IMG/VR virus record: IMGVR_UViG_2862035965_000001
Strand: one strand, 5' to 3'
From: a virus
Lineage: Duplodnaviria; Heunggongvirae; Uroviricota; Caudoviricetes
DNA: 46,081 nt
Within the stretch, counting starts at the first letter, position 1, and every line of letters starts with the position of its first letter. A program made the position numbers and the translations under genes. Shown piece after piece: positions 1 through 15,383 of this stretch. Below the pieces are notes generated by a model, which saw only the letters and a program-made list of their open reading frames with translations, searched no databases and was not told the DNA's origin.

Positions 1-368
1 GGCACCACAATCATCGACACAATCAACGCAATAGTCGTCACCGACGACAACACCGAGCCTGTACCCGCCAGCATTGCGCCTGCACGTGCGGTGATCATGC
101 CACCTGTAGCAGCAGAGATACCAGTACCGGCAGACAGGGCAAGCCCCATCATTCGTGTCCACAGGTTTTTAGCCAAATTACCCATAGAGCGAGCACCATT
201 GGCTGCAAGTGCTGCAGTACCAAAACCTACACGTAGTGCACCATAACCTAAGCCTTGTGCAGCTGAGCGGGTCTTATCTTTTGCTTCATCAACAAACCCT
301 GAGCCTCCCGAGTCACCATTATCAGGTGCATCGGGGGCATCATTTGGTTCTATAAAATCATTAGCCAC
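1..368 (-). CDS. 5' part of a membrane-anchored protein (runs off the window edge); next gene of the putative transfer cluster
   Basis: Read manually: GTG at 368, open to position 1 (MANDFIEPNDAPDAPDNGDSGG...TTIALIVSMIVV). Gly/Ala-rich, then a hydrophobic segment. Starts 28 bp after the upstream stop. Confidence 0.75.
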   Translation of the reverse strand, partial: MANDFIEPNDAPDAPDNGDSGGSGFVDEAKDKTRSAAQGLGYGALRVGFGTAALAANGARSMGNLAKNLWTRMMGLALSAGTGISAATGGMITARAGAMLAGTGSVLSSVTTIALIVSMIVV

Positions 369-396
369 AATGCACTCTCACAATCAATAAAAAAAT

Positions 397-1860
397 CTAG
401 AAACGGAATTCAACAGCGTCGGAACCTTGGGCAACCTGAGTATTTTCCACGGCCTGATCAAGCTGTGTTTCCGAGATCAACAGTTGTTGCAAAAGTTGTC
501 GCTGGTAGCGCTGCTTTTCGTTGAAGTAGTCCTGGTATGCCTGTGCCAGATTGTTTTTCAGATCAATGAGCGGCTTTGCGCCTTCACTGAGCACATGATC
601 TTCTAGGCGATCGCCATTGCTTAAGACCCACTCCATCTGGGTGGCATTCCACGTCTCTTTGGTTTGGTAAGCGTGATCAGTAATCCAGTCCATCGCGTCT
701 TGTCCACCTGGAATAACACTGTCTAGATAACCGTCCAGTGTGGTGCGATTACGCCAATCAAAGTCATAACCGCCACCAAAAATATGATCGGTGACCAGGC
801 GGTATGAATTGTATTGATAGCCCTCACTCATCAGATTATCCAGCGACGCAGCCATGAACGTCTTGTCCTCCCAACCTGGGACAGATTTCCCGGTGGGGTC
901 CTCAGCGAGCTGCTTGGTAACATCGACACTTGCCAAACCTTCGATACGATCGCCGCGAATTGACTCATGCGGAATAGGCTCAATCAGCGACACGCGCTCA
1001 CCCATAATGGTCGCGCTCGTAACGCCGAGCGCCTCCTTGTAATTCTCGATGCGACCAAGCAGTGCGTTCATACGTGAAAGTGACGTATCTAGTGCCTGTC
1101 GGTGACCCACCTCCGTATCTGTCATAGAGGTCTGCCAATACAACGCACGGAGATCAATCTGTTCGTCATTTAATGCCGGCAACGTCGCCAAAGTCTCTGC
1201 CGCTGGATTGAGCATGATGCGCCACTGGTCATGATCAATAAAGGAATCGTCATAGCCTTGAGCCTTCATATTCTCCGAGGTCAAGTTTGTACTATCGACT
1301 TCGACAAGCTCTTTCTTTGCACGCATTGTGATGTTGAGAACCTGCATATCAAAGCCCTCGGGGGCCTCAAGCATGAGCCCAATTCGACCATCACCAAAGC
1401 TATAAATGGAACCCACAGTTGCTTGAGAGACATCTGCTGCTTTGGGACTGGTGCCAAGGTCTTTCACACCGGTGACATAGGCAAAATAATCCTCAGCATT
1501 AGTGGACATATTGGCGGGAACAGCAAACTTAATAACAGCAAAAGCCCGTGTGCCCTCTACATTTTTCCAAAAGCCTGCGAGCTCGCTGACTTGGTTGGTT
1601 CGTGATGATCGAAACTCGACGTTGTACGTAGCTGTTTGAGAAAAATCAATGTTGCCGGCCTGCACTGCGTAAACAATTGTGCTGCCAAAAAGCAGTGACC
1701 CTGATACCACTGCTGCACCCGAAATAAGTGCTACCCGCTCGATCGTGTAGTGCTGCCCTAAACGAAAGCGACTGACAATACGATCGACTTTCTTCTGCAT
1801 ACCCTCTTTATTTGATGATGACTTTTTCTGCTTTGTTTTTCTCTGCACAGTATTTGTCAT
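397..1860 (-). CDS. Bitopic membrane protein with a large extracytoplasmic domain, putative conjugation component
   Basis: Long ORF (TTG at 1887, or ATG at 1860 with a better RBS). Basic N-terminus and a single TM segment (VALISGAAVVSGSLLFGSTIVYAV). Function inferred from context only. Confidence 0.8.
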   Translation of the reverse strand: MTNTVQRKTKQKKSSSNKEGMQKKVDRIVSRFRLGQHYTIERVALISGAAVVSGSLLFGSTIVYAVQAGNIDFSQTATYNVEFRSSRTNQVSELAGFWKNVEGTRAFAVIKFAVPANMSTNAEDYFAYVTGVKDLGTSPKAADVSQATVGSIYSFGDGRIGLMLEAPEGFDMQVLNITMRAKKELVEVDSTNLTSENMKAQGYDDSFIDHDQWRIMLNPAAETLATLPALNDEQIDLRALYWQTSMTDTEVGHRQALDTSLSRMNALLGRIENYKEALGVTSATIMGERVSLIEPIPHESIRGDRIEGLASVDVTKQLAEDPTGKSVPGWEDKTFMAASLDNLMSEGYQYNSYRLVTDHIFGGGYDFDWRNRTTLDGYLDSVIPGGQDAMDWITDHAYQTKETWNATQMEWVLSNGDRLEDHVLSEGAKPLIDLKNNLAQAYQDYFNEKQRYQRQLLQQLLISETQLDQAVENTQVAQGSDAVEFRF

Positions 1861-1982
1861 AGCTCTACCCCATTTCTTTAATGACAAACTTATTTTAACT
1901 ATTTAAAGACTAATTAAATTTAACACAATTAAATAAACAAACATACTGCATTATTTAACTCAACTAACGCCCCCAAAACATA

Positions 1983-2022
1983 CAAAAAGCACACCCTCAG
2001 ACATCTGAGAATGTGCTTTTTG
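1983..2022. terminator. Intrinsic terminator
   Basis: CAAAAAGCACA...TGTGCTTTTTG inverted repeat just downstream of the 2037 stop. Confidence 0.65.
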
Positions 2023-2036
2023 CGTGGCGCTAGATC

Positions 2037-2396
2037 TTAGCCACCTGTACCGAAACCGGTAACCGTATCGCCTGCACCAGACGCAAAGTTCAGCGCAAGT
2101 GTGATACCACCAACTAGGAACGCACCACCGACAATGATGAGCAAAATAGTGGTGAACCACTGAATCTGCTGACCACTCTGACCACCGAAGAGCTTGCGCA
2201 TCACGTTGACAAAGCCCCAAATCACAGCAGCACCACCAACAAGTGCCAGCAGCGAACCACCAATAATCATGAGGTAGTCAGTCGAGTTTTCAAGGAACGA
2301 CTGTAGATCCCAACTCTCACCCGTGGTGTACTGATCAGCACCATCCCAACCGGTGCCACCCTGTGCAACATAACTAACATTTCCAGGAATTGACAT
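2037..2396 (-). CDS. Small two-TM protein, TrbC/VirB2 (pilin-like) candidate
   Basis: ~119 aa from ATG 2396 with RBS. Two Gly-rich hydrophobic helices separated by a short basic/polar loop. Adjacent to the VirB6-like gene. Confidence 0.65.
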   Translation of the reverse strand: MSIPGNVSYVAQGGTGWDGADQYTTGESWDLQSFLENSTDYLMIIGGSLLALVGGAAVIWGFVNVMRKLFGGQSGQQIQWFTTILLIIVGGAFLVGGITLALNFASGAGDTVTGFGTGG

Positions 2397-2570
2397 ATTC
2401 ACCCTACTTTCCACACTGTTCCCATAAGTAATAAACAACTTTTGTTACCAACCAATAATTTAGTCTGTTTCTTAATGGGTTTCAATTCCTTAAAACATTT
2501 ATTACTTAAATAATCCTTAATATCTAACGGTCCCAGAAGAGAAGCAAAATACACCCTAATAAGACACAGG

Positions 2571-2608
2571 GAAACCCCTGAGAAACATCAATGTTTCTCA
2601 GGGGTTTC
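2571..2608. terminator. Intrinsic terminator
   Basis: GAAACCCCTGAGAAACAT / ATGTTTCTCAGGGGTTTC perfect inverted repeat. Confidence 0.8.
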
Positions 2609-2635
2609 TTTACTTACTTAGTGGCTACCGGCTCA

Positions 2636-5600
2636 TTACTGCTTCGAGCCAGTGTCACCGCCCTGTGGCTGTGACCCCTGATCACCGTGATCAGTCTTTT
2701 TTGCCTGCTGCTGTGTCTCGTTGCCGCCCATGCTTGCCATGCGGCTGCTTACCGCAGCTGATCGCATCGCTGCGTTCATCGCCTGACTGGTCGCAGAAGG
2801 CTTCTGGCTTCGCTGTCCACGAATGCCATTCTTGGCACTGACACCGCTACGCTGTGCACCTCCGCCGCCTTGGGTTGCTCCACCACGACCACCAGTGCGT
2901 CCGCTACCACCCATCGCGTCACGAACATTAGCACCCATCTGACCAGGCTGTCCGAAGCCTCGAACAGCTTGTGATGCCAGCGAGCCTGCGACGTTCGCAC
3001 CCATAATCTGAGCTGATGACGGAGTACTTGTATTCGCTGTGTGTGCAGTATTGGCCTGGTTGTTCTGCACAAATGCCTGCGCATGTCCAGACTCTTGGTA
3101 GTGAGCCTGACCAGGTGCTACAGGTCCATGTGATGCGTTAACCACATGAGCAGCACCTGTAGAACCGGCAGCACCACCAGAAACAGCGTTACTGATAAAT
3201 CCAGCACCTGTCGCAGCGTTACCCATTGCGCTTGAGACAGTGCCTGCGCCTTGTGCTGCGGAACTTGCTGCGCCCGCTGCACCGATCACACCTGCAACAC
3301 CCGCAATGCCGGCTGCACCTTGTGCCATCTGACCAAAGCTTGCGCCAGAGGTACCTGCATCAGCATTAGTCACTGCATTCTGGATCTGACCAGGAACCTG
3401 TGACAAGTGCTGTGCCGCCTCAGTGAACTTACCGGCCACATCAACACCACCCATACCACCTGCTGCATAAGCACTGTTTACACTGTCGCCAACCTGCTGA
3501 CCCATGGACGCCAGCTGAGTATTCAGTGCCGAGCCAGAAAGATCACCAAGCTGCTTACCAGCCTTTCCAACCGGTGCTTCAGTGGCCTGAGCATTAAGCG
3601 GCTCGACGCCACCGAGAGAACTAGCTGGTGCAAGACCCTGGGATGCTGCAACCTGAAGCGCTGCATCATTCACAGCCTGATCTGAACTCGACACAGACCC
3701 ACCAGCGAGAGCACCCACTGGGGCACCACCCTGCAGCGCAGCCTCGCTCATATTCAGACCTGCACCAGAACCTGTCGCACTGTAATCAGCACCAGTGGTA
3801 CCAACCGCACCCACAGCGCCAGAGACCTCTGCGCCGTAAGTGTCTGGAATCTTTGACAGACCAGACTCAGTGACACTGCTTGCCAGGGACTGATCATCCA
3901 TGACATCAGCTGCCGTGGTAATGCCACTCGACTTCACACCAGATTTCTCCATCATGGTTCCTGACGAGCTCAGACCAGCCATCTTCGTCTCAGCTTCAGC
4001 AGCGCTCATTGGTGTGCCATCAGCATGAAGCGGGTTGCCCTGTGCATCGACGATCGCACCCTCACCGTCGAGGGTGGTTCCATCAGCACTGTACGCAGCA
4101 TTGCTAAATGATGCCTGACCAGAGCCACCAACAGCACCGTCAACGAAATCAGCACTAGCATCCGCAGAAGCGGTTGTATCGCCATCTGCTACATAGTCAC
4201 CATCGACCGTTCCTGAAGCAGAACCAGCTGTCGCATCGGCATCAACAGTAGCGTCGCCACCTGCTGCAAACGAGCCATCGCCGTCGCCGTCCATAATGCC
4301 CTCAGCTGCTTGATCAATGCCTTCCTTGGCGAGCCATCCAGCACCTGCAGCACCACCAACAATTCCAGCAGTAGCCAAACCGGTCTTAGCAAAGTCACCG
4401 AGCTTGCTTGAGCCAGATCCACCACCGTCAGCGCCGCCGCCTGAGCCAGAACCTGAATCAGATCCGCCATCATCACTACGAAGTAGTGCATGGGTGGCGC
4501 CAATACCGACACCAGTCGCAGCAGCACGACGCATCATGCCGTCACCAGAGGTAGCACCCGCAGAAGAAACCTGCGTATCGAGGAACCGGTTAACAACAGA
4601 GGTCACAGCCTCATCAACGCCAGATACCAGGGAGCTACGCACCTTCATCGCGATGATAGTGAAGACGATGACACCGAGCGAAGAGATCACCGTAATAACC
4701 AACGCTGCAACAGCCATGTTATTCGAGGCGCTCAAAGCCAAGCCAACAAGACCCATACCACCAGCAACCACCGCATCAGATTCAACATCACGAAGTGTCG
4801 ATGCCAAAGGTTGCTCAAAAAGCGCCGGCACGGTCATGAGGAACTTGGTGATCAACTGGTACAAGAAAATGGTACCGATAATCTCAATGAACATCGCCAC
4901 TGTGTACACAATGACCTTAGCGACACCGGCGATAAAGCCCATGGCTGCGAAAGGAACAGCGCCAATCAACGAAATAGAACGTCGAATCGAGTTAAACAGC
5001 ATTGCTCCGGCATAACCGATACCAATAACAATAAAGCTACCCATGAGCGAGATCGCAGAGAACCAGTACACGATAGACATTGCACCAGTGCCGATGAGAT
5101 TCACCGAGTTATGGGACGCACGTGAATAGGTGGAGGTTGATGTCGAGGCCGAGTAGACACCGGCGTCAGCAGGGTTGAAGGAGGTGTTGAGGTAGTTATA
5201 CATCGTCAGCGGGGACAAGTTGCAATAACTGCGGTAGTCACCATCGAGAGCTGCGCCTAGATCACCTGGCAAGCCACCAACTAAGCCACCAAAAAGATCA
5301 TCCCAAATTCCGCCAAGTCCACTCGCCGTAGAAACAACAGAATTAGTGCAACGTACAGTCGGATCAAGTGTCCTAAATCCGATTCCGCTATCACTGATCT
5401 GCGCACTTGCCAAGCCAGCCGAGTCATGAACCGCTAGCAGTGGATTTTTCGCCTCAGCAATGTCCTCTGCAGTCTTTTCCTTAATGGACGACTCAGTATT
5501 GTAATCGGTCACCCACGCCATCACATCTGACGCAGAAGTTGGATCATCCTTCGCCAAGTCCTCCATAGCACTTCGAATCGAAGTCTCAAAGCTACCCGAA

Positions 5601-7261
5601 GAGAGGCTCTCATTTTCAATATAACGAGTAAGCATATCCACAGTACGGCCAAAAATAGTCGTTGCTGAGTTTTGTGCAGCTGCGCCACCACCACCAACGA
5701 TATTATTCATCTCCGAGGACTTAGGGTTAGACATCTTTGACATCCAGCCTGCATCTTCACCGTTTTGGAACTCTAAATCAATCGCTGCACCAGGTTCTTT
5801 AAAAGCACTGAAATAATAATTTGAGTTCGCATTAATTTCCAATGTTGTATTCCGTACCGTCCGCAATGATTGACCTGTCGGCGCCTGCTCATCCAGATCC
5901 CATGAGATCACATTGGCATTACCTACCTTCGACGGGATCTGTAAACGTGTATTCTCTGCCCACGACTGGAAATCAACATAGGTGGACAACACGATTTTTG
6001 TCGCGTTTGATCCCGCACCGGTCGAGCTACCAGCGCTCAACAAAGAATCGAGCGCGCCGGTGTAGGTCACACCAAGAAGTGGCAACCCAACAACACCATA
6101 AATAACCCGGATCGCGACCTTTTTAATTGCCGAACCCTTATCCATGCGGCGCATCATGAGAATACCCATCATGGTCAGGCCAAGTGAGACCGGGATAACC
6201 ACAAGCCAACCAATGCTGACAGCCCAGTTATAGATCTGGGTAAAGAAGCTCGTCATGCCTTCAAATGGAGTACCTGCTGCGGTCTGTCCGCCTGCCATAC
6301 CCTCAGTGAAAGTGGCATTAGTGTTCTGTGACGCCGGCGTCACAAGAAGGCGGAAGGGGTTAATAGTCGTCAAAACCTTTAGTACAGAGTTAAAGACAAG
6401 ATCAATACCACCAGAAATCATGTACACAGCCATGATCGAGTAACCCATACCTTTACGCTGCGCCATATCAGTCGCAGAGTCTTGCGCTGCAGAACCATCG
6501 AGACCTAAGCCACTGAGTGTCGCGCCAAACAACGCATATTGGTAAGGACCCTTGTACGAATGCGTAGCCAAAGAGTCATAAGAATATGTCTTCTGGTTAT
6601 TCGCATCACCAACACCGAAGAACCAACCAGAGTCTTCATTGTGCTTCGGATCTGAATAACCCAGCACGTCACCGCCATTAGCAGCCTTATTAAGAACACC
6701 ACCCCACGCGCCAAGGCCAGCGTCCTCTACATCAGTGAACTCATTACCGTCACCTTCTTCAATACCTGCAGTTGCTGCACGGCCATTGGAGTAGAAGGAC
6801 GCCATAGCAGAGGCCATGCGGTACATCGAGTAATCAGGCGCCTTGTCAAGGTTCTCCTCTTTGCGTGTTTCTTCGTTTTTTGCATCATAGAAACACTTAA
6901 GAACATCGTCAGCAGCCAAGCATTTCTCCACTATGTGAAGCTCGCCGAGATTCTCAGTAATGCACTTGAGCAACATTTCCGTGTCACCGTCACTGGGACA
7001 GATCGCTTCAAAAGCAACCTCGCCCATAGCACCAACGACCTGCGCGATAATTGCCGACGCAAAAGCGTCAGCCTCGCGCTCTTTGTTGCCAAATGCACCA
7101 AAACTAAAGCCCATGGCGACAATAAGTGTCAGCACAGCAACTATCACCCGGCGTTGCCAGGTTTTCCGCTGATGCTGCGCACGATCCATGCGTGCAATTT
7201 CTGCATCTACATCCAGACCATTGAGCTGAATGGTTTTTTGATCCAAGACCGCTGTGGTCAC
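2636..7261 (-). CDS. Giant polytopic membrane protein, VirB6-like, with a long Gly/Ala/Ser/Gln-rich C-terminal tail
   Basis: 1541 aa. An N-terminal TM, two clusters of hydrophobic helices separated by a large loop, and a ~600 aa low-complexity tail. This architecture is typical of extended Gram-positive VirB6-like proteins. Confidence 0.7.
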   Translation of the reverse strand: MTTAVLDQKTIQLNGLDVDAEIARMDRAQHQRKTWQRRVIVAVLTLIVAMGFSFGAFGNKEREADAFASAIIAQVVGAMGEVAFEAICPSDGDTEMLLKCITENLGELHIVEKCLAADDVLKCFYDAKNEETRKEENLDKAPDYSMYRMASAMASFYSNGRAATAGIEEGDGNEFTDVEDAGLGAWGGVLNKAANGGDVLGYSDPKHNEDSGWFFGVGDANNQKTYSYDSLATHSYKGPYQYALFGATLSGLGLDGSAAQDSATDMAQRKGMGYSIMAVYMISGGIDLVFNSVLKVLTTINPFRLLVTPASQNTNATFTEGMAGGQTAAGTPFEGMTSFFTQIYNWAVSIGWLVVIPVSLGLTMMGILMMRRMDKGSAIKKVAIRVIYGVVGLPLLGVTYTGALDSLLSAGSSTGAGSNATKIVLSTYVDFQSWAENTRLQIPSKVGNANVISWDLDEQAPTGQSLRTVRNTTLEINANSNYYFSAFKEPGAAIDLEFQNGEDAGWMSKMSNPKSSEMNNIVGGGGAAAQNSATTIFGRTVDMLTRYIENESLSSGSFETSIRSAMEDLAKDDPTSASDVMAWVTDYNTESSIKEKTAEDIAEAKNPLLAVHDSAGLASAQISDSGIGFRTLDPTVRCTNSVVSTASGLGGIWDDLFGGLVGGLPGDLGAALDGDYRSYCNLSPLTMYNYLNTSFNPADAGVYSASTSTSTYSRASHNSVNLIGTGAMSIVYWFSAISLMGSFIVIGIGYAGAMLFNSIRRSISLIGAVPFAAMGFIAGVAKVIVYTVAMFIEIIGTIFLYQLITKFLMTVPALFEQPLASTLRDVESDAVVAGGMGLVGLALSASNNMAVAALVITVISSLGVIVFTIIAMKVRSSLVSGVDEAVTSVVNRFLDTQVSSAGATSGDGMMRRAAATGVGIGATHALLRSDDGGSDSGSGSGGGADGGGSGSSKLGDFAKTGLATAGIVGGAAGAGWLAKEGIDQAAEGIMDGDGDGSFAAGGDATVDADATAGSASGTVDGDYVADGDTTASADASADFVDGAVGGSGQASFSNAAYSADGTTLDGEGAIVDAQGNPLHADGTPMSAAEAETKMAGLSSSGTMMEKSGVKSSGITTAADVMDDQSLASSVTESGLSKIPDTYGAEVSGAVGAVGTTGADYSATGSGAGLNMSEAALQGGAPVGALAGGSVSSSDQAVNDAALQVAASQGLAPASSLGGVEPLNAQATEAPVGKAGKQLGDLSGSALNTQLASMGQQVGDSVNSAYAAGGMGGVDVAGKFTEAAQHLSQVPGQIQNAVTNADAGTSGASFGQMAQGAAGIAGVAGVIGAAGAASSAAQGAGTVSSAMGNAATGAGFISNAVSGGAAGSTGAAHVVNASHGPVAPGQAHYQESGHAQAFVQNNQANTAHTANTSTPSSAQIMGANVAGSLASQAVRGFGQPGQMGANVRDAMGGSGRTGGRGGATQGGGGAQRSGVSAKNGIRGQRSQKPSATSQAMNAAMRSAAVSSRMASMGGNETQQQAKKTDHGDQGSQPQGGDTGSKQ

Positions 7262-9591: not shown

Positions 9592-12021
9592 CTACCGCTT
9601 CGCCAGGCGCTTCTTTTCTACCTGTGCAAGTGCGTCGTCAAGATTCTTCGGCCCTGTTTTCGCAGCTAGTTCTTTCGCCTCCACATCATCAAGCTCCTTC
9701 ATCTTGCGCGCAGCCTTCTCCTCAAAGCGCTCTTCGCGGTGCTCGGCCTTGGCCTGAATAGCCACCACATCCAAATCCGCTGTACCCACCATGGTCGTGC
9801 CACCGCCGTAGTGCTTATCTCGCTTGGATCGTCGCCTACCGCGCTGCGCTTCAATCTTGCGGCGCTGCTCCATATAAGGATTCACACCCAACGCAAGGTT
9901 GGTTTCAAACACCACATTGGTCGCACCTCGGCGCAAATAGCTCGCACCAGAATTCTGCGTTGTTACCAACCGCGCCAAGTCCATCGGAATCTGACTGTTA
10001 ATCAGCGACTGATACATATCCACCGAGTCAACATTCATCGGGCCCAAAATGGTGTACGCAGCACGTTGGAACTGGTTGAAACCGACAGTGCCAAGCATGG
10101 CGTCCATCGAACTGTAGAGATAGGCCACTCGCCCACCACGCTCAGCCATGTAACCAAACTGATTCGCCAAATAATCCTGCACATCAACATCGACAATGCC
10201 ATCAGCACCGTGGATAATAACCACATCACCTTGACCGAGCGTCTCCACGGCAAAACCAATGACGTTAACTAGCTGTGCCATCGCAACACCTGCGCCACGT
10301 CGCAGCAAACCAGAAAAATCATAGATCACGCGGCGTGCAGAGTTAACAGAGTCAATGCCATCTGCAGTGTGCTGATTAAACAAGTCACCGTGAGTATCGA
10401 GCAAATCTTTATAGGTCAATCGCAGCACAGAAATAGCTCGGAACATATCGGGGTCTTTCACACCCTCGAACTTCTGCCTCTCATACTCTTGATCAAGATA
10501 GGACACAAAGACAGAGAGCAGCGGGATCTGATCATGAGGAACCCCAACAAGTCGCAATTTGTCTCGGTTTTCACCAGCGTTAAGAGCCCACATACTCATG
10601 TCCACATAAAAATCTGTGATGATCTCTTTGAGCTTTCCACGCAATAGCGCCAGCTCAGAAGTCTTATCGCCCAGTGCTTGCTCGGTCATGAACACGATCT
10701 TGTCCATGTGTGTTGAATACAGCGACAGCTCATCTTCTTGCTTACCAAAAAGCTCAAACATGTTGAGATCACCGCTGGTCATGTCCACATGCGCGGTCAT
10801 AGATTCTAACTTCGGCCCCATTTCATCAAGCTTGGCGCCATTGAGCACCAGATGCACCACGCGACGGTTGTTGAGCAACGCTGCCTGGGAGATCTTCGAC
10901 CCCCACATATCAACCACACGTGGTCGATTCAGCAATGGCGAGGTGTTAATAGAATTATCTGCGCATACGACATGTCCAGACCAACGATCCACATCAAAAA
11001 GCACAGCGGAGTTGTTGACATCGCCACGCATGACACCGACGTATTCGCCGGCAACATCGTTAAGACCATTGGTGACCAAAGAATAAGAACCTGCAAATTC
11101 GGTCGAAGTAAAGTGGAACCCTTTACCTCGCTTTTTACTATTCTTGGTAAAAATCTGTGACAGCTCCTGGCGCTGCTCACCGTGGTGTGCAGCAATATCC
11201 ATTCGCGATAAGTGCTCGATGAAACTGCGTCGAATCTTCTCTACAGTAGAATCCAAAATCTCAAGGCTTGGTCCGCGCAACAGCAGGCGGTTGTGCACAG
11301 TCAAATATGATGCACCGTCATCAAGTTCAGCAATCACTTCATCAAGATCAAGTCCACGTTTGACTGTCTTGCGACGATTCGACTTGGTGGAAGAATCTGC
11401 CAAGTCCGATTCCTCTGTCTTGGAAAGTCGGTCAGTGTTTTTTAGGTTGTCATCAATCCATGACTGCTTCATACGCTCCACCTGCTCAAAGAGCACAGCG
11501 GAAACACCCTCAGGAAGGTTACGCGGAATACGGTTCACTCCCCAGAAGGCACCGAATTCATCCTTGGCATCCTCATTGTGGAAAAACGACAAAATAGTGC
11601 CGATTTCATCATCCACCTCAAAATAATCTGAGTGGAAAACATAATGTTCCCGTGGCTTAATCACCATGAGGTGGCCATGATTTTCCATGGTGCCTAACGC
11701 TGCCTGCGCGTCCTTTTTCTGCTGGCGAGTCATCGTCTCGTCAGCAAGATCATCGCCAGACTCGTCCACATCATCCGTGGCAGCGCTGGTCGCACGATCG
11801 TCAAGGTCACCAAAACCAAATGATCCACTCAGGGTGCGCGCAGTGCGCGCAGGTACAGGTGTGGTTTCCTCGGGCGCGCGACCAATGATGCGAGCTCCCA
11901 GTGAGGGTGCTGGGAGTGGTGCTCCTGTGTCAGGTGTTGCATGAAGTGCATCAATCTCCGTAGCGGAGGTGTCTGCAGGTGTTTTCGACTGCTTTTTCTT
12001 GAGTCTGTTTAGAAGTTTCAT
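9592..12021 (-). CDS. VirB4/TrsE-like conjugation protein with degenerate Walker motifs
   Basis: 809 aa. Segments resembling VirB4 pre-ATPase motifs (LLLRGPSLEILD; TSTEFAGSYSLVTNGLNDVAGEYVG...AVLFD). Lies directly downstream of a PrgI-like gene. No GxxxxGK[S/T] present. Confidence 0.65.
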   Translation of the reverse strand: MKLLNRLKKKQSKTPADTSATEIDALHATPDTGAPLPAPSLGARIIGRAPEETTPVPARTARTLSGSFGFGDLDDRATSAATDDVDESGDDLADETMTRQQKKDAQAALGTMENHGHLMVIKPREHYVFHSDYFEVDDEIGTILSFFHNEDAKDEFGAFWGVNRIPRNLPEGVSAVLFEQVERMKQSWIDDNLKNTDRLSKTEESDLADSSTKSNRRKTVKRGLDLDEVIAELDDGASYLTVHNRLLLRGPSLEILDSTVEKIRRSFIEHLSRMDIAAHHGEQRQELSQIFTKNSKKRGKGFHFTSTEFAGSYSLVTNGLNDVAGEYVGVMRGDVNNSAVLFDVDRWSGHVVCADNSINTSPLLNRPRVVDMWGSKISQAALLNNRRVVHLVLNGAKLDEMGPKLESMTAHVDMTSGDLNMFELFGKQEDELSLYSTHMDKIVFMTEQALGDKTSELALLRGKLKEIITDFYVDMSMWALNAGENRDKLRLVGVPHDQIPLLSVFVSYLDQEYERQKFEGVKDPDMFRAISVLRLTYKDLLDTHGDLFNQHTADGIDSVNSARRVIYDFSGLLRRGAGVAMAQLVNVIGFAVETLGQGDVVIIHGADGIVDVDVQDYLANQFGYMAERGGRVAYLYSSMDAMLGTVGFNQFQRAAYTILGPMNVDSVDMYQSLINSQIPMDLARLVTTQNSGASYLRRGATNVVFETNLALGVNPYMEQRRKIEAQRGRRRSKRDKHYGGGTTMVGTADLDVVAIQAKAEHREERFEEKAARKMKELDDVEAKELAAKTGPKNLDDALAQVEKKRLAKR

Positions 12022-12128: not shown

Positions 12129-12163
12129 AAAGCAGGTTGTCGGATCTTCCGGCAACCTGCTTT
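12129..12163. terminator. Intrinsic terminator
   Basis: AAAGCAGGTTG...CAACCTGCTTT. Confidence 0.75.
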
Positions 12164-12177
12164 AAAAAACGTCGCGA

Positions 12178-13047
12178 CTACTTCTTCTTATGTCCGTAAA
12201 TACTGCGCAACAGGTCATTAACCTCAAACCCGTTGAGTTGACGACACTGCTTGTACATCGCACTTGAGTTTTCTACCTCAGAGAGCAAAATCTCTTGTGC
12301 AGTATGCAGTGCGGCGTCATTCGGTGAATGCAGCGCCAAATACTGGTGAATTGAGCTGAATTTTCCACCTACGTCATAACGCAAAATATCAAGTGATTCC
12401 TCCATAAGCTTGGTGAGCTCAGGGTGTCGATACACCAGGTTCTGGTTTTTACGTTCGACGTTGGCGACCTGACTAAATACTGCTTGGGATTCCTTTGTCG
12501 TGATGAAATTCCACTGCGTGTCTGTTTCTACTTTTTGCCAAAAAGAATCTACGCGGTCAACAATCTGACTCCGATCGCCAGAGAACAACAACGCTGAGGC
12601 TGTACCCACAACCGAGTAGAAATAACCCACACTGCCATCCAAGTAGCGCACATAACCATCTTCATCGACACTTTTAATACCGACAAGCTGCATGAATGGG
12701 TATGGCGCAGTATCACGTCGTGTGGAAATTCTACGGTGTTGTTTCTGCAGATAGCCGAACAGAGCCGGCAGCTGCATAAACTTCATTTCCTTGGTTTTAG
12801 TCCACTGTCCGAAATAAGCAGCGAAACCAATGACCCACAACACAATGATGATTTTCAGCCACACCGGTGAGTGCTTGACCGGTGGTGTCATAATCACAGC
12901 TGCAGTGGAAATAAACACCACAAACCAAAACAGCAAAACTTTAACAGGGATAATGCCCAAGCTAAACGACTTGGTGGTAATCGGGATCTCATAATCCAGC
13001 ACACTGCGCGCCAGGGATGGTGGAACTTTGTATTCTGCTTTTGCCAT
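12178..13047 (-). CDS. PrgI/VirB3-like membrane domain fused to a TrsD-like cytoplasmic domain
   Basis: N-terminal YKVP motif and two TM helices, then GIKSVDEDGYVRYLDG...LLFSGDRSQIVD, resembling TrsD-type proteins. Immediately upstream of the VirB4-like gene. Confidence 0.6.
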   Translation of the reverse strand: MAKAEYKVPPSLARSVLDYEIPITTKSFSLGIIPVKVLLFWFVVFISTAAVIMTPPVKHSPVWLKIIIVLWVIGFAAYFGQWTKTKEMKFMQLPALFGYLQKQHRRISTRRDTAPYPFMQLVGIKSVDEDGYVRYLDGSVGYFYSVVGTASALLFSGDRSQIVDRVDSFWQKVETDTQWNFITTKESQAVFSQVANVERKNQNLVYRHPELTKLMEESLDILRYDVGGKFSSIHQYLALHSPNDAALHTAQEILLSEVENSSAMYKQCRQLNGFEVNDLLRSIYGHKKK

Positions 13048-13103
13048 CTCACACCTTCTTTCTTCAATCTATCATTTGACTCTTGTGCTGCACATGCTCG
13101 GGG

Positions 13104-15383
13104 TTAGTCTCGCGGTGCCAGCTGGAAGCCGACAAAGGAGTTGCCGTTGTACTCGCCGCGCTGCAGCGATCCCCGAGCTGTGTACGGCTTCTTTGCCTTC
13201 GACATAGCATCGAAAGCAATCTCGCGACCTTCAAGCAGATCGGCGATCTCCTTGTCGGTGAACTTGTGACCACCCCATACGCGCTTGAAGCGAATCTTTT
13301 TACCCTCAACCTTCCACACACCCACCGCGTACACAGCTGGGTCTGCAGAGGCAATGCGATCAACCTGACCCTTAAACCCAAAGAAATTGATGGTCTTGCC
13401 GTCTTTGTTGAAGCTTTGATGCGCTAGCTTGCCGGTGACTGTCGTGATCTGCCCACCAATCATCGCATCGGTAATGGTGAGCTCCTCACCATTGAGCAAC
13501 GCCTCACATTCAGCATCGCTAAATTCATGCCCGCAGTAGACCTTCTTAAAGCTCACCTGCTCGCCGTTCCAGATGCCGGAGTGCTTCGCAGTGGGGGTAA
13601 AAGTAGTAGTCATGAGTTTCTTTCCTAGTTCTTGGGGGATGTTTTTTGCGTTGCGGGTCATGGTGGCAATATCCTCTTCGACCCACTGTTTCACTGGCTC
13701 TAGTGCCTGCTCTGCGGTCTTTTCACCAGCAGCAACCGCAGCCATATCCGCATAAACGCGCTCGGTCAATTTGAGGTCGCCAATATGGGTGCCAGGAAGC
13801 AGCAGATAATTCAGTTGCCCTGCGTCAGTCATAGTGACTTTGCCGCGAGTTTCTTTGAGCAATGCTGACTTGCCGGCTGTGACCTCGGCATAAGTGCTCG
13901 TTCGTGTCGCACCGGTACCGACATCATGCTTATCGAGCTGTTTCATCAACCACGTCATCGACGGATGCGGTGGTCGCTGCGGAAAACCCTCAAACACCTC
14001 TGGCTCAGCACGGTTACCAATCCCCTGCTGTGCTGCATCACTGCCGGCAGCGGCATCATCAGTCTCGGCGTCTACGTCGAAAATACCCTTCCAACCCAAG
14101 GACTTCGGTACGTTCGCGGTACCGAGAAACGCTGGGTAATCCACGACGCGGCCTTTTTGGTGCTCATAGAGGTAATCCTCTGCCAGCATCGTGAGGTAGC
14201 TCTTAGCCAGCACTTCATAAATGCGCTGTCCGAGCACACCATAGGTGGTTTTCACCGCTGCAATACTGGCCGGCACATTAAATCCCGGACGGTTAGCACC
14301 GTGGGCACCCTTAGGCTTGACGTGGGTCGATCGTGGCTGCCTATGCGTAAGGTCAGCCGGATTCACACCGACCAGGCCGGCAATCTTATCTACCAGTGGC
14401 GCAAGTTCCTTAAACTGCTCAGGGGTAATCGTCTTATCCTCGGTACGCGGATAAGACACCACCTGTGCTTCATACATCTGCTGATAGGTCTTCAGCACGT
14501 TCTTTGCGCTAAAACCTTCTTTGGACAGCAATGCCGACAGGCTTGCCAAGTCAAGTAGACGTGGCGGCGCCGTCTTTTTCATGCTCTTCTCATAGCATTC
14601 GACAGCACTTGCTTTGTACTGCTGCGGTACCTCGTCGCGAGTCTTATAACGTGGCTCCTCGGGGTTGACGTAACTTACCCCGTGATCATCAGTGAAGCGG
14701 TTTTGATAAAAAGGAGTCTTTTTATAATCGTTGTACGCATCTAAGCCCTGCCCCACAATCGCAACCATGGCAGATTTCAGGCGCCCATTGCGCAAGACTG
14801 CACGCCGACCAGTGGCCTCCAACACTTTGGTGGCACCGCGAGTCCACTGCATCGACAGCAGATCAAAGCGTGATCGGAATTCCGCCTTAAGATAATTGGG
14901 CTCGTCATGCATGGAGGTCACATCGCGACGGTTGATAAACGCCTGCTGAATCGAGGCCGGCGCCTCATCAACAAATTCCATACGCTGAATCTTCTTGGTG
15001 TCTAACCCCAGCTCAGCGATAATCTCCCACGCCAACAGATCGCCTTCACCCGTGGGATCAATATCTGATCCGATCACAATGGTGTTGCAACTGCTCAAGG
15101 TTTTCTTAATGCGCGCAATCGTGTTGGCTGCGCCGTGCTTTTGCTCCCGTGACCACAAAAACTGCCTCTCGTCCCACGGCAGCTTAGCGAGATCCCAGTA
15201 TCCACCGATTTCATCGGCATAGCTTGGCGGCACCATCTCTTCTGGTTCCACGAACTCATAAAGATGCCCACTGGCTGCAGCAATGACGTATTTCTCGCCG
15301 TTATAAGTACCAGAGGGTCCGCCGAGGGCTTTCGCAAAGTTTTTTGCAGCCGAAGCTTTCTCCGTCAAAATTCCAATTGTCAA
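13104..15383 (-). CDS. Type IA DNA topoisomerase (mobile-element TopB/topoisomerase III-like)
   Basis: Toprim motifs (TEKAS, GHL, DIDPTGEG), GRLKS, catalytic SYPRTE and GTGATR. Two C-terminal repeats (FKKVYCGHEFSD..., FKRVWGGHKFTD...). TTG start with AGAAAGG RBS. Confidence 0.93.
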   Translation of the reverse strand: MTIGILTEKASAAKNFAKALGGPSGTYNGEKYVIAAASGHLYEFVEPEEMVPPSYADEIGGYWDLAKLPWDERQFLWSREQKHGAANTIARIKKTLSSCNTIVIGSDIDPTGEGDLLAWEIIAELGLDTKKIQRMEFVDEAPASIQQAFINRRDVTSMHDEPNYLKAEFRSRFDLLSMQWTRGATKVLEATGRRAVLRNGRLKSAMVAIVGQGLDAYNDYKKTPFYQNRFTDDHGVSYVNPEEPRYKTRDEVPQQYKASAVECYEKSMKKTAPPRLLDLASLSALLSKEGFSAKNVLKTYQQMYEAQVVSYPRTEDKTITPEQFKELAPLVDKIAGLVGVNPADLTHRQPRSTHVKPKGAHGANRPGFNVPASIAAVKTTYGVLGQRIYEVLAKSYLTMLAEDYLYEHQKGRVVDYPAFLGTANVPKSLGWKGIFDVDAETDDAAAGSDAAQQGIGNRAEPEVFEGFPQRPPHPSMTWLMKQLDKHDVGTGATRTSTYAEVTAGKSALLKETRGKVTMTDAGQLNYLLLPGTHIGDLKLTERVYADMAAVAAGEKTAEQALEPVKQWVEEDIATMTRNAKNIPQELGKKLMTTTFTPTAKHSGIWNGEQVSFKKVYCGHEFSDAECEALLNGEELTITDAMIGGQITTVTGKLAHQSFNKDGKTINFFGFKGQVDRIASADPAVYAVGVWKVEGKKIRFKRVWGGHKFTDKEIADLLEGREIAFDAMSKAKKPYTARGSLQRGEYNGNSFVGFQLAPRD

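What the first reader, a model, noticed from the sequence alone, without database searches (positions are those of the whole stretch)
1..15383. The 'prophage' arm looks like a divergent conjugative type IV secretion system
Seen: a co-oriented run of topoisomerase IA, PrgI/TrsD-like, VirB4-like, Rib-domain surface protein, lipoprotein, giant polytopic membrane protein, two-TM pilin-like protein and two bitopic proteins. No phage structural gene appears in 46 kb. Known: PrgI(VirB3)-VirB4 adjacency with VirB6, VirB2 and TopB is the hallmark of Gram-positive conjugation loci. Inference: this CGP3-like element may be an ICE, or a phage-ICE hybrid, with a transfer machine adapted to a mycolate envelope and too divergent for routine annotation. 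No relaxase or coupling protein is visible in the window.
Basis: partly seen in the sequence, partly recalled or inferred. Interest (0 to 1): 0.85.

Follow-up and report, generated by a model that had tools for sequence, protein, structure and literature searches.

The report
Conjugation machine inside CGP3 'prophage'
The left third of the window encodes the channel-building half of a very divergent Gram-positive type IV (conjugative) secretion system. Its relaxase and coupling protein lie just outside the window, so the 183-kb CGP3-type 'prophage' of Corynebacterium glutamicum looks like an integrated conjugative megaplasmid rather than a virus.

Summary
Window 1-15383 (minus strand) carries these genes:
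- a type IA topoisomerase;
- a 2-TM protein with a TraC/VirB4-N-like domain;
- an 809-aa protein whose model matches the VirB4 ATPase domain (Z 28.7 to 4AG5) but has no Walker A;
- a Rib/YPDG surface protein and a lipoprotein;
- a 1541-aa polytopic protein, a small 2-TM protein and a bitopic protein;
- the start of a bitopic lysozyme.

The element spans about 183 kb, from tRNA-Val to the integrase at the window's right end. C. glutamicum ATCC 13032 holds orthologues at least 90% identical, so this is CGP3. No capsid, terminase or portal family matches anywhere in the genome.

The backbone (transfer, replication, Lsr2, AlpAC) is collinear with Gordonia plasmid pGKT2, which has been transferred by mating. 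The same module sits unannotated on staphylococcal and enterococcal plasmids.

One caveat: in C. glutamicum the coupling-protein gene is split inside a degenerate mini-intein, so self-transfer may be impaired.

The scan has not noted this on other DNA.

The parts
13104..15383 (-). Type IA DNA topoisomerase (TopB-like), first gene of the conserved run
   Evidence: Pfam Topoisom_bac 5.6e-31, Toprim 4.1e-8; NCBIfam topB 1.2e-38. Present upstream of the 2-TM gene in 58 of 81 related loci. 52% identical to the pGKT2 topoisomerase.
12178..13047 (-). 289-aa membrane protein: N-terminal 2-TM hairpin (VirB3-like topology) plus a cytoplasmic TraC/VirB4-N-like domain
   Evidence: TM helices 26-57 and 59-82. 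Sits directly upstream of the VirB4-like gene in 79 of 81 loci. The five best Foldseek PDB matches are R388 TrwK/VirB4 chains, E 2.4e-3 to 9.5e-3. ESM Atlas shape match TM 0.69 (by target) over residues 112-289 to a cluster that is 52% PF26593 TraC-like. The PrgI Pfam model gives no match.
9592..12021 (-). 809-aa VirB4-fold protein without Walker A or B (probable pseudo-ATPase scaffold)
   Evidence: VIA Z 28.7, rmsd 3.2 A, 344 residues aligned to VirB4 4AG5 over model residues 310-714. Foldseek E 8e-12. No GxxxxGK[ST] in any of 20 family members, in pGKT2 or in the Firmicutes homologues; WGSKIS is invariant, and I-H-G is invariant at the Walker B place in the 20 actinobacterial members and kept in the three Firmicutes homologues aligned. 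About 980 homologues with no Pfam domain.
8558..9397 (-). Secreted Rib/YPDG-repeat surface protein (accessory; candidate adhesin)
   Evidence: RibLong 6.8e-16, YPDG 4.3e-27, signal peptide. No homologue in 81 related loci.
7493..8314 (-). Lipoprotein (accessory; entry-exclusion role is only a guess)
   Evidence: Lipobox L-A-A-C after a signal sequence. No homologue in 81 related loci.
2636..7261 (-). 1541-aa polytopic membrane protein, VirB6-like by position and topology; conserved core is residues ~130-900, followed by a Gly/Ala/Ser-rich tail
   Evidence: About 10 hydrophobic segments. Follows the VirB4-like gene in 79 of 81 loci at ~31% identity over ~780 aa. No Pfam family in it or in 17 homologues. 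Strong terminator-like hairpin just after its stop, at 2608-2571.
2037..2438 (-). 133-aa protein with two TM helices (VirB2-like or VirB3-like by shape only)
   Evidence: TM helices 54-77 and 91-120. Syntenic homologues in 18 loci and in staphylococcal plasmids (phmmer 8.6e-13). No family match.
397..1887 (-). 496-aa bitopic protein with a large extracytoplasmic domain (candidate VirB8/TcpC-like scaffold; fold not tested)
   Evidence: One TM helix at 52-72. Syntenic homologues in 23 loci. 37% identical to pGKT2 47096-48544. No Pfam family.
1..368 (-). 5' end of a 553-aa bitopic peptidoglycan hydrolase (VirB1/PrgK-like role); the rest lies left of the window (L005:13707-15368)
   Evidence: Phage_lysozyme2 1.6e-28. 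TM helix at 98-118. phmmer 5.7e-16 to pCF10 PrgK. Same position in Rhodococcus, Gordonia and Staphylococcus plasmids.
15384..16764 (.). 1.4-kb non-coding stretch packed with GTAACG/CGTTAC repeats and a perfect 20-nt inverted repeat; candidate oriT or origin (untested)
   Evidence: 8 direct-repeat families and 11 inverted pairs; I1 arms at 15814-15833 and 16055-16074 are 100% complementary.
16765..18852 (-). 695-aa SF1 helicase with a C-terminal PD-(D/E)XK-like region, conserved with pGKT2
   Evidence: AAA_19 5.2e-10, UvrD-helicase 1.7e-6, PDDEXK_3 0.0033. P-loop ATVGSGKT. 49% identical to pGKT2 36620-38809.
33924..34550 (+). SSB in the plus-strand arm of small genes (possible leading region)
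   Evidence: Pfam SSB 2.8e-9. Homologue on pGKT2.
44987..46081 (-). Tyrosine recombinase at the right end of the element
   Evidence: Phage_integrase 2.1e-11. A 515-530 bp direct repeat (85% identity) lies 390 bp to its right (genome 2099838-2100352) and at the 3' end of tRNA-Val(cac) (genome 1917324-1917851).

Best explanation
[quoted passage not shown] It belongs to a deep, largely unannotated clade.

The clade's gene set is: MobL relaxase; a VirD4-type coupling protein; a two-ring Clp-like AAA+ ATPase; a 2-TM protein with a TraC-like domain; a VirB4-fold protein that has lost the P-loop; a large polytopic protein; a small 2-TM protein; a bitopic protein; a membrane-anchored lysozyme; a type IA topoisomerase; an SF1 helicase; and a giant single-chain RNA-polymerase-like protein.

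In this genome the set occupies the right ~85 kb of a ~183-kb element integrated at tRNA-Val. That element is CGP3 of C. glutamicum or its orthologue. Its backbone is collinear with the transferable Gordonia plasmid pGKT2.

Likely working (inferred, except where marked shown):
1. The integrase excises the element. The AlpAC-to-membrane step below is from published CGP3 work read here (PMC4446434); excision, replication as a circle and SOS inducibility are from my own recall of that literature.
2. Its own primase, polymerase-like protein and helicases copy it. AlpAC brings the DNA to the membrane.
3. MobL nicks at an oriT. The helicase and topoisomerase unwind and relax the DNA.
4. The coupling protein feeds the relaxase-bound single strand into a channel. 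The channel is built from the polytopic protein, the 2-TM proteins and a ring of the VirB4-like scaffold, and the lysozyme opens the wall.
5. The Rib/YPDG and LGFP proteins make cell contact.

Because the VirB4-like protein has no Walker A, energy would come from the coupling protein and the AAA+ ATPase.

Shown here: homology or fold of each named part, synteny, element borders, and lack of detectable virion genes. Not shown: transfer itself.
For: - VirB4 fold: Foldseek E 8e-12 and VIA Z 28.7, rmsd 3.2, 344 residues to 4AG5, well above DndH-C (21.0), TrwK (20.7) and HerA (~18).
- Relaxase: MobL 1.5e-57, the only copy in the genome apart from a fragment.
- Coupling protein: PF02534 1.5e-15, TraG-D_C, TrwB_AAD_bind; P-loop and two TM helices.
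- Hydrolase: Phage_lysozyme2 1.6e-28.
- 2-TM protein: structure matches to the VirB4 N-domain / TraC-like fold.
- Synteny: conserved in 81 loci from Actinomycetota and some Bacillota.
- Co-occurrence: five complete genomes that carry the VirB4-like gene each have exactly one MobL and one coupling protein.
- pGKT2: 41 of 169 ORFs match, in three collinear blocks that include the whole transfer set, the replication set, Lsr2 and AlpC. pGKT2 was transferred by mating to three genera (Jung 2011 as cited in PMC5640721).
- Borders: tRNA-Val and integrase, flanked by a 515-530 bp direct repeat.
- Identity with CGP3: ATCC 13032 proteins BAB99234.1, BAB99188.1, BAB99172.1 and BAB99168.1 fall in the same 90% clusters. 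A C5-methylase/NgoFVII/Z1 restriction-modification trio is present; that it matches the CGP3 cglIM-cglIR-cglIIR system is from my own knowledge.
- No virion genes: no HK97 capsid, TerL or portal family anywhere in the genome. The left 100 kb holds replication and nucleotide-metabolism genes.
Against: - No transfer of CGP3 has been reported in the papers I could search.
- The coupling-protein gene is in two ORFs (1118 and 507 aa). The break lies inside a mini-intein that has Ala instead of Cys at position 1, has lost its LAGLIDADG part, and holds a 3.1-kb insert with two genes. The 507-aa piece is identical in length in ATCC 13032.
- The VirB4-like protein lacks Walker A and B.
- VirB6, VirB8 and VirB2 assignments rest on topology and gene order only, and no family model matches.
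- The module was not found in 200 other species of the genus.
- Three collagen-repeat proteins near the left end match a PHROG labelled 'tail protein'.
- The virion-gene test used three Pfam families plus partial Pfam/PHROG tallies. Very divergent capsid genes could be missed.
Confidence: 0.82

Rival explanations
1. The genes are true T4SS homologues, but in the C. glutamicum lineage the module is an inert relic. The element can still excise and replicate but can no longer transfer itself. The genes persist only through recent ancestry or other roles.
For: - The coupling-protein gene is split inside a degenerate intein (Ala1, endonuclease part lost, 3.1-kb insert), and the same split is in ATCC 13032.
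- A 202-aa MobL fragment lies next to mobL.
- A restriction-modification cassette sits between the RNAP-like gene and the coupling-protein gene, which are adjacent in five other genomes.
- No published transfer of CGP3 was found.
Against: - Every other transfer ORF is full length and collinear with pGKT2.
- Both coupling-protein halves keep open frames and their motifs. The break sits at the usual split-intein site, between block B and block F, so the halves could still associate or splice in trans.
- Loss of Walker A in the VirB4-like protein is clade-wide, including transferable pGKT2, so it is not decay.
Confidence: 0.35
2. CGP3 is a real, if odd, prophage or phage-plasmid. Its virion genes are too divergent to recognise, and the T4SS-like genes serve phage DNA handling, or were picked up from a plasmid (phage-ICE hybrid).
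For: - Long-standing annotation as a prophage: SOS-inducible, replicates after excision, kills the cell (PMC5137423 and PMC4446434).
- Three collagen-repeat proteins match a PHROG called 'tail protein' at 1.2e-41.
- Many replication genes match phage families.
- The hydrolase domain is named 'phage tail lysozyme'.
Against: - No capsid, terminase or portal family in the whole genome at E 0.1, and none among the families listed by the Pfam and PHROG tallies of 99 left-arm ORFs (25 of 43 and 25 of 56 were shown).
- The collagen match can be driven by the repeats alone.
- The same backbone exists as a 182-kb circular plasmid with ParA (pGKT2), which moves by mating.
- The lysozyme2 domain is also the PrgK hydrolase of pCF10.
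Confidence: 0.07
3. The apparatus is a T4SS-like machine used for something other than self-transfer, such as protein secretion, contact-dependent killing or DNA uptake.
For: - The VirB4-like protein has no ATPase motifs.
- Surface proteins are embedded in the cluster: Rib/YPDG, and LGFP with a variable C-terminal domain.
- Fic and trypsin-like genes lie in the same element.
Against: - The module always travels with a relaxase, a coupling protein, a topoisomerase, a helicase and SSB, which is the signature of DNA transfer.
- It sits on plasmids and integrated elements, not in core genomes.
Confidence: 0.04

Closest known systems
Gordonia sp. KTR9 plasmid pGKT2 (NC_018580, 182,454 bp, circular)
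   Same: It holds the whole transfer set in the same order: topoisomerase, helicase, 2-TM protein, VirB4-like (54% identity), polytopic protein, bitopic protein, lysozyme, four small membrane or unknown genes, MobL (43%), AAA+ ATPase (55%), an 866-aa coiled-coil protein, coupling protein (59%) and RNAP-like protein (45%). It also holds the replication block (P4-type primase, 1300-aa polymerase-like protein, helicases, RecJ/DHH), Lsr2 and AlpC/AlpA. Its size is nearly identical. Its VirB4-like protein also lacks Walker A.
   Different: pGKT2 is a free circular plasmid with ParA. Its coupling protein is one 1412-aa ORF with no intein. It lacks homologues of the Rib/YPDG and lipoprotein genes (no pGKT2 match) and carries RDX-degradation cargo. 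Only 41 of 169 ORFs are shared. Its transfer was shown by mating (Jung 2011, via PMC5640721). To my knowledge the genes responsible were never mapped.
pLS20 / pHTbeta-type Gram-positive conjugation systems (MobL relaxase family PF18555)
   Same: Relaxase of the MobL family. The coupling protein matches the pHTbeta VirD4-like protein (phmmer 1e-25), the topoisomerase matches (7.4e-17), and the VirB4-like protein has a faint match to the pHTbeta VirB4 (5.8e-6, small database).
   Different: pHTbeta has a VirB4 with an intact P-loop (GKMGFGKS), a VirB11-like ATPase, an annotated VirB2-family protein and a MobP2 relaxase. I did not inspect pLS20 itself.
pCF10 Prg/Pcf T4SS of Enterococcus faecalis (model Gram-positive T4SS)
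   Same: Both share the layout small membrane protein, then VirB4, then a lysozyme-type hydrolase, with a coupling protein and a relaxase nearby. The hydrolase matches PrgK (5.7e-16).
   Different: hhalign finds no similarity to PrgI or PrgJ. PrgI is 117 aa and has no TraC-like domain. PrgH is 266 aa, against 1541 aa here. The relaxase is a different family.
R388 TrwM/TrwK (VirB3/VirB4) inner-membrane complex, PDB 8RTD/7O42
   Same: The 809-aa model aligns to full-length TrwK over model residues 131-713 (Z 20.7). The 2-TM protein's soluble domain has TrwK chains as its best, though weak, PDB matches.
   Different: It is a Gram-negative system with an outer-membrane core and a pilus. TrwK is an active ATPase. 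Sequence identity is about 10%.
Staphylococcal plasmids SAP020A / pAYP1020 and E. faecium plasmids of 80-250 kb
   Same: SAP020A carries MobL, the AAA+ ATPase, an unsplit 1289-aa coupling protein, the 2-TM protein, a Walker-less VirB4-like protein (26-27% identity, E 2e-54), the RNAP-like protein and a topoisomerase. The related S. aureus TUM20888 plasmid shows the coupling protein, the 2-TM protein, the VirB4-like, RNAP-like and small 2-TM proteins and the lysozyme; a topoisomerase is annotated there but did not match my query, and its MobL/AAA+ region lay outside the stretch fetched. In the E. faecium plasmid I detected only the AAA+ ATPase, the 2-TM protein and the VirB4-like protein.
   Different: They are Firmicutes plasmids with a different gene order, and the RNAP-like gene sits inside the transfer operon. 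No homologue of the actinobacterial polytopic protein was detected. MOB-suite types most of them as non-mobilizable or mobilizable. I found no published study of their transfer.

Membership tests
Conjugative type IV secretion system (Gram-positive type) | VirB4-family protein (fold) | tested here: met
   VIA Z 28.7, rmsd 3.2 A, 344 of 374 residues of 4AG5. Foldseek E 8e-12.
Conjugative type IV secretion system (Gram-positive type) | VirB4 Walker A and Walker B (active ATPase) | tested here: not met
   No GxxxxGK[ST] in the protein, in 20 family members, in pGKT2 or in Firmicutes homologues. The site aligned to the P-loops of pHTbeta VirB4 and PrgJ reads C-A-D-N-S. The Walker B place reads I-I-H-G.
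Conjugative type IV secretion system (Gram-positive type) | Type IV coupling protein (VirD4/TraG) | tested here: met
   PF02534 1.5e-15 (cut-off 20.1 bits, score 57.5), TraG-D_C 1.2e-6, P-loop AMTRAGKG, two N-terminal TM helices. The gene is split in two ORFs in this lineage.
Conjugative type IV secretion system (Gram-positive type) | Relaxase | tested here: met
   MobL PF18555 1.5e-57, 195.9 bits against a cut-off of 28.5. NCBI names the ATCC 13032 orthologue 'relaxase MobL'.
Conjugative type IV secretion system (Gram-positive type) | Cell-wall hydrolase (VirB1/PrgK/TcpG role) | tested here: met
   Phage_lysozyme2 1.6e-28 in a bitopic 553-aa protein. phmmer 5.7e-16 to pCF10 PrgK.
Conjugative type IV secretion system (Gram-positive type) | VirB6-like polytopic channel protein | tested here: inconclusive
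   About 10 TM segments and a conserved place after VirB4 in 79 of 81 loci. No family model matches it or its homologues.
Conjugative type IV secretion system (Gram-positive type) | VirB3/PrgI-like small membrane partner of VirB4 | tested here: inconclusive
   2-TM hairpin directly upstream of VirB4 in 79 of 81 loci. Weak structural matches to the VirB4 N-domain / TraC-like fold. PrgI Pfam and hhalign are negative. VIA wide search is not above noise.
Conjugative type IV secretion system (Gram-positive type) | VirB8/TcpC-like bitopic scaffold | not tested
   The 496-aa bitopic protein is a candidate by topology only.
Integrative and conjugative element (ICE) | Site-specific recombinase and flanking repeats at a tRNA | tested here: met
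   Phage_integrase 2.1e-11 at window 44987-46081. A 515-530 bp direct repeat lies at the tRNA-Val(cac) 3' end and right of int, giving an element of about 183 kb.
Integrative and conjugative element (ICE) | Contact-dependent self-transfer | not testable with these tools
   There is only indirect support: the collinear plasmid pGKT2 transfers by mating.
Tailed prophage (Caudoviricetes) | Major capsid, terminase large subunit, portal | tested here: not met
   PF05065, PF03354 and PF04860 give no match in the whole genome at E 0.1. None appears among the families listed by the Pfam and PHROG tallies of 99 left-arm ORFs, which showed 25 of 43 and 25 of 56 families, or among the window ORFs tested with Pfam. 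Very divergent versions cannot be excluded.
PrgI family (PF12666) | Match to the family model | tested here: not met
   No hit at the locus even at E 10 in a whole-genome six-frame search.

The most novel reading that the evidence does not exclude
CGP3, pGKT2, about a thousand actinobacterial elements and a set of 'non-mobilizable' staphylococcal, enterococcal and lactobacillal plasmids may form one ancient clade of conjugative elements. In this reading their T4SS runs with a catalytically dead VirB4 ring. It is powered instead by the coupling protein and a dedicated two-ring Clp-type AAA+ ATPase. The elements carry their own single-chain RNA polymerase, perhaps for establishment in the recipient. 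In CGP3, the AlpAC actin system, described as moving 'viral' DNA to the membrane, would in fact deliver the element to this secretion machine. The coupling protein would be rebuilt from two halves by a split intein.
Probability: 0.25. Interest if true: 0.85.

Novelty: new variant of a known kind. Interest (0 to 1): 0.72.

Why it matters
CGP3 is a standard model for prophage induction, xenogeneic silencing (CgpS) and 'viral' DNA transport by actin-like AlpC. It is also deleted in industrial chassis strains. If it is an integrated conjugative megaplasmid, those results need re-reading as ICE or plasmid biology, and C. glutamicum would have a native conjugation system to test and perhaps use.

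More broadly, the module marks a T4SS clade that the Pfam and PHROG models tried here do not detect. Pfam AAA_10 and CagE give no hit. An earlier actinobacterial survey used AAA_10 and TrwC (PMC3218068). MOB-suite calls most of the carrying plasmids non-mobilizable or only mobilizable (185 of 196 records). This bears on the old puzzle that Actinobacteria seem to have many relaxases but few T4SS (PMC3158045).

A VirB4 that has lost its ATPase motifs across a whole clade, including a plasmid that transfers, challenges the view that VirB4 ATPase activity is universally required.

Tried and rejected
- Sequence searches of the 809-aa and 289-aa proteins, alone and as profiles, against PDB sequences found nothing useful.
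- Pfam and PHROGs found nothing for seven of the nine proteins in the run.
- hhalign of the family profiles against single pCF10 PrgJ and PrgI sequences gave probabilities of 0.1-0.2.
- The PrgI Pfam model did not hit the locus. PF26593 is not in the local Pfam copy.
- AAA_10 found no canonical VirB4 anywhere in the genome.
- The VIA wide search with the 2-TM protein model was dominated by helical-hairpin matches. TrwK ranked only 15th at Z 5.9, which is not above noise.
- A Pfam scan of 66 homologues of the polytopic, small 2-TM, bitopic and two downstream proteins gave only scattered single weak hits.
- Megablast of 9592-15383 against the phage collection gave no match.
- I suspected the E. 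faecium hits were pMG1/pHTbeta-type plasmids. pHTbeta turned out to carry a different, pLS20-like T4SS with an intact VirB4.
- The pELF linear-plasmid TraC 'VirB4 analog' (PMC13492992) is a 420-aa FtsK-family protein and is unrelated.
- I considered that loss of Walker A was decay of this copy. I rejected this because the loss is shared by all clade members examined.
- I considered that the core was specially adapted to the mycolate envelope. I rejected this because the core is shared with non-mycolate genera.

Full report
**1. What is in the window**

The window is G000:C1:2053367-2099447 of a 3.54-Mb single-contig genome. From 15383 down to 1, nine ORFs lie head to tail on the minus strand.

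- The first (13104-15383) is a type IA topoisomerase: Topoisom_bac 5.6e-31, Toprim 4.1e-8, NCBIfam topB 1.2e-38.
- The fourth (8558-9397) has a signal peptide and RibLong/YPDG repeats.
- The fifth (7493-8314) has a lipobox.
- The others have no Pfam or PHROG family.
The 289-aa protein has two TM helices. The 1541-aa protein has about ten. The 133-aa protein has two. The 496-aa protein and the ORF that runs off the left edge have one each.

**2. The VirB4-like protein**

The 809-aa protein has about 980 homologues at roughly 50% identity across Actinomycetota. All are 'hypothetical' and none has a Pfam domain. Its only sequence hint is a sub-threshold NCBIfam match to a mycoplasma ICE VirB4 (1.3e-5).

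An AlphaFold2 model built on 20 homologues has mean pLDDT 64, and mostly above 80 over residues 340-710. Its best PDB match is the VirB4 ATPase domain of Thermoanaerobacter (4AG5):
- Foldseek E 8e-12, TM 0.75 by target;
- VIA-align Z 28.7, rmsd 3.2 A, 344 residues.

The next matches are DndH-C (21.0), R388 TrwK (20.7), HerA (~18) and TrwB (~16).

No member of the family has GxxxxGK[ST]. Where pHTbeta VirB4 and PrgJ have their P-loops, this clade reads otherwise. The Walker B place reads I-I-H-G. The same holds for the Firmicutes homologues and for pGKT2. The loss is therefore old and conserved, not decay of this copy.

No canonical VirB4 (AAA_10) exists elsewhere in the genome.

**3. The 2-TM protein**

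The 289-aa protein sits directly upstream of the VirB4-like gene in 79 of 81 related loci. The PrgI Pfam model does not match it, and neither does hhalign against pCF10 PrgI.

Its model (pLDDT 69) gave three results:
- R388 TrwK/VirB4 chains as the five best Foldseek matches, but weakly (E 2.4e-3 to 9.5e-3);
- a shape match (TM 0.69 by target, residues 112-289) to an ESM Atlas cluster that is 52% 'TraC-like';
- language-model neighbours that include TraC-like/PrgI clusters, below the 0.9 line.

The wide VIA search was not informative. I read the protein as a VirB3-like hairpin fused to a VirB4-N-like domain, with moderate confidence.

**4. Synteny**

A scan of one genome per species returned 80 loci. 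They came from Nocardiopsis, Streptomyces, Arthrobacter, Kribbella, Microbacterium, Actinomyces, Promicromonospora and a few Bacillota and Coriobacteriia MAGs. BLAST of my ORFs against their six-frame ORFs gave these counts out of 81 loci:

| Gene | Loci with a homologue |
|---|---|
| Topoisomerase | 58 |
| 2-TM protein | 79 |
| VirB4-like | 81 |
| Polytopic protein (core residues 130-900) | 79 |
| Small 2-TM protein | 18 |
| Bitopic protein | 23 |
| Lysozyme | 22 |

Two further downstream genes were found in 12-19 loci. All lie in the same order. The Rib and lipoprotein genes have no counterpart.

**5. The missing parts lie left of position 1**

- The ORF cut by the window edge is a 553-aa bitopic protein with Phage_lysozyme2 (1.6e-28). 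This is the domain of the pCF10 hydrolase PrgK.
- Six to nine kb further left is a 914-aa MobL relaxase (1.5e-57), with a 202-aa MobL fragment beside it.
- Then come a two-ring AAA+ ATPase (AAA_2 5.2e-40, two P-loops) and an 841-aa coiled-coil protein with a C-terminal TM helix.
- Last is a VirD4-type coupling protein: PF02534 1.5e-15, TraG-D_C, TrwB_AAD_bind, P-loop AMTRAGKG, two TM helices.

**6. The coupling protein is split**

The coupling-protein gene is in two ORFs of 1118 and 507 aa. They carry TraG-D_C profile positions 3-59 and 56-125 respectively.

I aligned them with a Streptomyces homologue that has an intact intein (it starts C-L-A-L-D and ends T-H-N|T-S-N, with a LAGLIDADG domain) and with an intein-less Pseudarthrobacter homologue. 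The break lies inside a mini-intein with three defects:
- it has Ala at position 1;
- it has lost the endonuclease part;
- it carries a 3.1-kb insert with a DUF4379 zinc-finger gene and a membrane-protein gene.

**7. The element and its identity**

A tyrosine recombinase sits at window 44987-46081. A 515-530 bp direct repeat (85% identity) lies just to its right and at the 3' end of tRNA-Val(cac), 182.5 kb to the left.

Between the coupling-protein gene and a 1927-aa RNA-polymerase-like gene lies a restriction-modification trio: a C5 methylase, an NgoFVII-type endonuclease and a Z1/DEAD protein. From my own knowledge this matches the cglIM-cglIR-cglIIR system of CGP3.

Exact-sequence cluster look-ups place four proteins in the same 90% clusters as C. 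glutamicum ATCC 13032 proteins:

| Protein here | ATCC 13032 protein | Note |
|---|---|---|
| VirB4-like | BAB99234.1 | |
| MobL | BAB99188.1 | NCBI already names it 'relaxase MobL' |
| 507-aa coupling-protein half | BAB99172.1 | same 507-aa length |
| RNAP-like | BAB99168.1 | |

So this is CGP3 or its orthologue, and the split coupling protein is shared with the type strain.

The VirB4-like protein was not found in 200 other species of the genus.

**8. Phage or plasmid?**

HK97-capsid, TerL and portal families have no match in the whole genome at E 0.1.

Ninety-nine ORFs of the left 100 kb gave replication and nucleotide-metabolism families: P4-type primase, a polymerase-like giant, helicases, RecJ/DHH, dNMP kinase, a resolvase and AAA+ ATPases. 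Three collagen-repeat paralogues match a PHROG called 'tail protein'. Repeats alone could explain that match. Only the top 25 families of each tally were visible, so this test is not exhaustive.

**9. pGKT2**

tblastn against plasmids found the VirB4-like protein at 50-54% identity on Rhodococcus, Gordonia and Streptomyces plasmids. It found it at 25-27% identity on 190-odd Firmicutes plasmids. MOB-suite calls most of the 196 matching records non-mobilizable or only mobilizable (111 and 74; 11 'conjugative').

Gordonia sp. KTR9 pGKT2 (182,454 bp, circular) shares 41 of my 169 element ORFs, in three collinear blocks:
- the full transfer set, from the RNAP-like gene through the coupling protein (one 1412-aa ORF, no intein), AAA+ ATPase, MobL, lysozyme, bitopic, polytopic, VirB4-like and 2-TM genes to the topoisomerase and helicase;
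- the replication block, including Lsr2 (the CgpS counterpart);
- AlpC/AlpA.

[quoted passage not shown] TW2 (Jung 2011, as cited in PMC5640721). The pGKT2 annotation lists no other recognisable transfer system.

This is the strongest indirect support that the module works as a conjugation machine, even with a Walker-less VirB4.

**10. Firmicutes relatives**

Staphylococcal plasmid SAP020A carries MobL (4e-31), the AAA+ ATPase (6.5e-88), an unsplit coupling protein (7.7e-129), the 2-TM protein, the VirB4-like protein (7.6e-71), the RNAP-like protein (1.5e-54) and a topoisomerase (1.1e-8). The related S. aureus TUM20888 plasmid shows the coupling protein, the 2-TM protein, the VirB4-like, RNAP-like and small 2-TM proteins and the lysozyme (4.7e-11). 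A topoisomerase is annotated there but gave no phmmer match to my query, and its MobL/AAA+ region lay outside the stretch fetched.

The coupling protein, the topoisomerase and, faintly, the VirB4-like protein also match pHTbeta. pHTbeta is a pLS20-like system with an intact VirB4 P-loop. The clade is thus a distant sister of the pLS20/MobL systems.

**11. Literature**

No paper in the searchable library links CGP3 to conjugation or a T4SS. The earlier actinobacterial ICE survey used AAA_10 and TrwC models, which would miss this family (PMC3218068). Guglielmini et al. remarked on many relaxases but few T4SS in Actinobacteria (PMC3158045). A 2025 T4SS review does not mention such a system.

**12. 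Verdict**

The 'prophage arm' is the channel half of a conjugative T4SS, and the DNA-processing half lies next door. The whole element is best described as an integrated pGKT2-like conjugative megaplasmid (an ICE).

Whether the C. glutamicum copy still transfers is open, because of the split coupling protein.

The kind (ICE with T4SS) is known. This clade is divergent and unannotated and has unusual features: a dead VirB4, a dedicated AAA+ ATPase and an RNAP-like giant. The reassignment of a much-studied 'prophage' would surprise specialists.

Noticed in passing
L006:4495-7851(-) and L003:14824-16347(-); genome 2028190-2036217, left of the window: The VirD4-type coupling-protein gene is split into 1118-aa and 507-aa ORFs inside a mini-intein. 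The intein has Ala instead of Cys at position 1, keeps H-N|T at its end, and has lost the LAGLIDADG part. A 3.1-kb insert (a DUF4379 zinc-finger gene and a 259-aa membrane-protein gene) lies between the halves, at the place where natural split inteins are split. A Streptomyces homologue has the intact intein. Pseudarthrobacter and pGKT2 have none. The same 507-aa half exists in ATCC 13032.
   Followed up: partly
L003:4463-10246(-); genome 2017829-2023612: A 1927-aa protein has weak Rpb2_6 and Rpb1_2 hits, suggesting a single-chain two-barrel RNA-polymerase-like protein. UniProt calls the ATCC 13032 orthologue 'DNA-directed RNA polymerase'. It lies next to the coupling protein in five other actinobacterial genomes and in pGKT2. 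In staphylococcal plasmids SAP020A and the TUM20888 plasmid it sits inside the transfer operon. It appears to be a conserved part of this conjugation module, with unknown role.
   Followed up: partly
window 9592-12021 and homologues (L099:19725-21854, L098:9540-11666, L100:15947-17917): Loss of Walker A and B in the VirB4-like protein is shared by actinobacterial elements, pGKT2 and Firmicutes plasmids. A two-ring Clp-like AAA+ ATPase (L005:483-2270) co-occurs with it on SAP020A, an E. faecium plasmid and pGKT2, and may supply the missing motor.
   Followed up: partly
plasmid records GQ900386.1, NZ_CP150776.1, NZ_CP007602.1, NZ_LT598665.1 and about 190 more: Staphylococcus, Enterococcus faecium, Lactiplantibacillus and other Firmicutes plasmids carry homologues of this transfer module. 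MOB-suite types them as 111 non-mobilizable, 74 mobilizable and 11 conjugative. Their mobility may be underestimated.
   Followed up: partly
window 15384-16764: A 1.4-kb non-coding gap between the topoisomerase and the helicase is full of GTAACG/CGTTAC-based direct and inverted repeats. It includes a perfect 20-nt inverted repeat with a 221-nt spacer. It is a candidate oriT, origin or regulatory site.
   Followed up: partly
L005:9021-9629(-); genome 2047387-2047995: A 202-aa ORF just upstream of mobL matches MobL profile positions 63-167 (1.4e-9) and the pGKT2 MobL (34% identity). It is a partial duplicate or remnant of the relaxase gene.
   Followed up: no
L093:9572-15546(-); genome 1922938-1928912: Three paralogous collagen-repeat proteins (867, 375 and 642 aa) lie near the left end of the element. 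They match PHROG 29134 'tail protein' (1.2e-41) and Pfam Collagen/DUF4988. This is the only phage-structure-like signal in the element, and it could be driven by the repeats.
   Followed up: partly
L003:10670-14743(+); genome 2024036-2028109: A C5 cytosine methylase, an NgoFVII-type endonuclease and a Z1/DEAD protein lie between the RNAP-like gene and the coupling-protein gene, which are adjacent in other genomes. From my own knowledge the trio matches cglIM-cglIR-cglIIR. It looks like an inserted restriction-modification cassette.
   Followed up: no
window 25240-44923 (+ strand): A plus-strand arm of small genes includes a staphylococcal-nuclease homologue (25240-25926), SSB (33924-34550), a trypsin-like protease (38709-39662) and a Fic protein (39725-40444). 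Most of the rest have no Pfam family. Only SSB and one 119-aa gene (24847-25206) have pGKT2 counterparts.
   Followed up: partly
window 2571-2608 and 1982-2023 (- strand): Two long terminator-like hairpins (17 and 19 pairs) lie directly after the stops of the 1541-aa and 133-aa genes. The run is therefore probably not one transcription unit.
   Followed up: no
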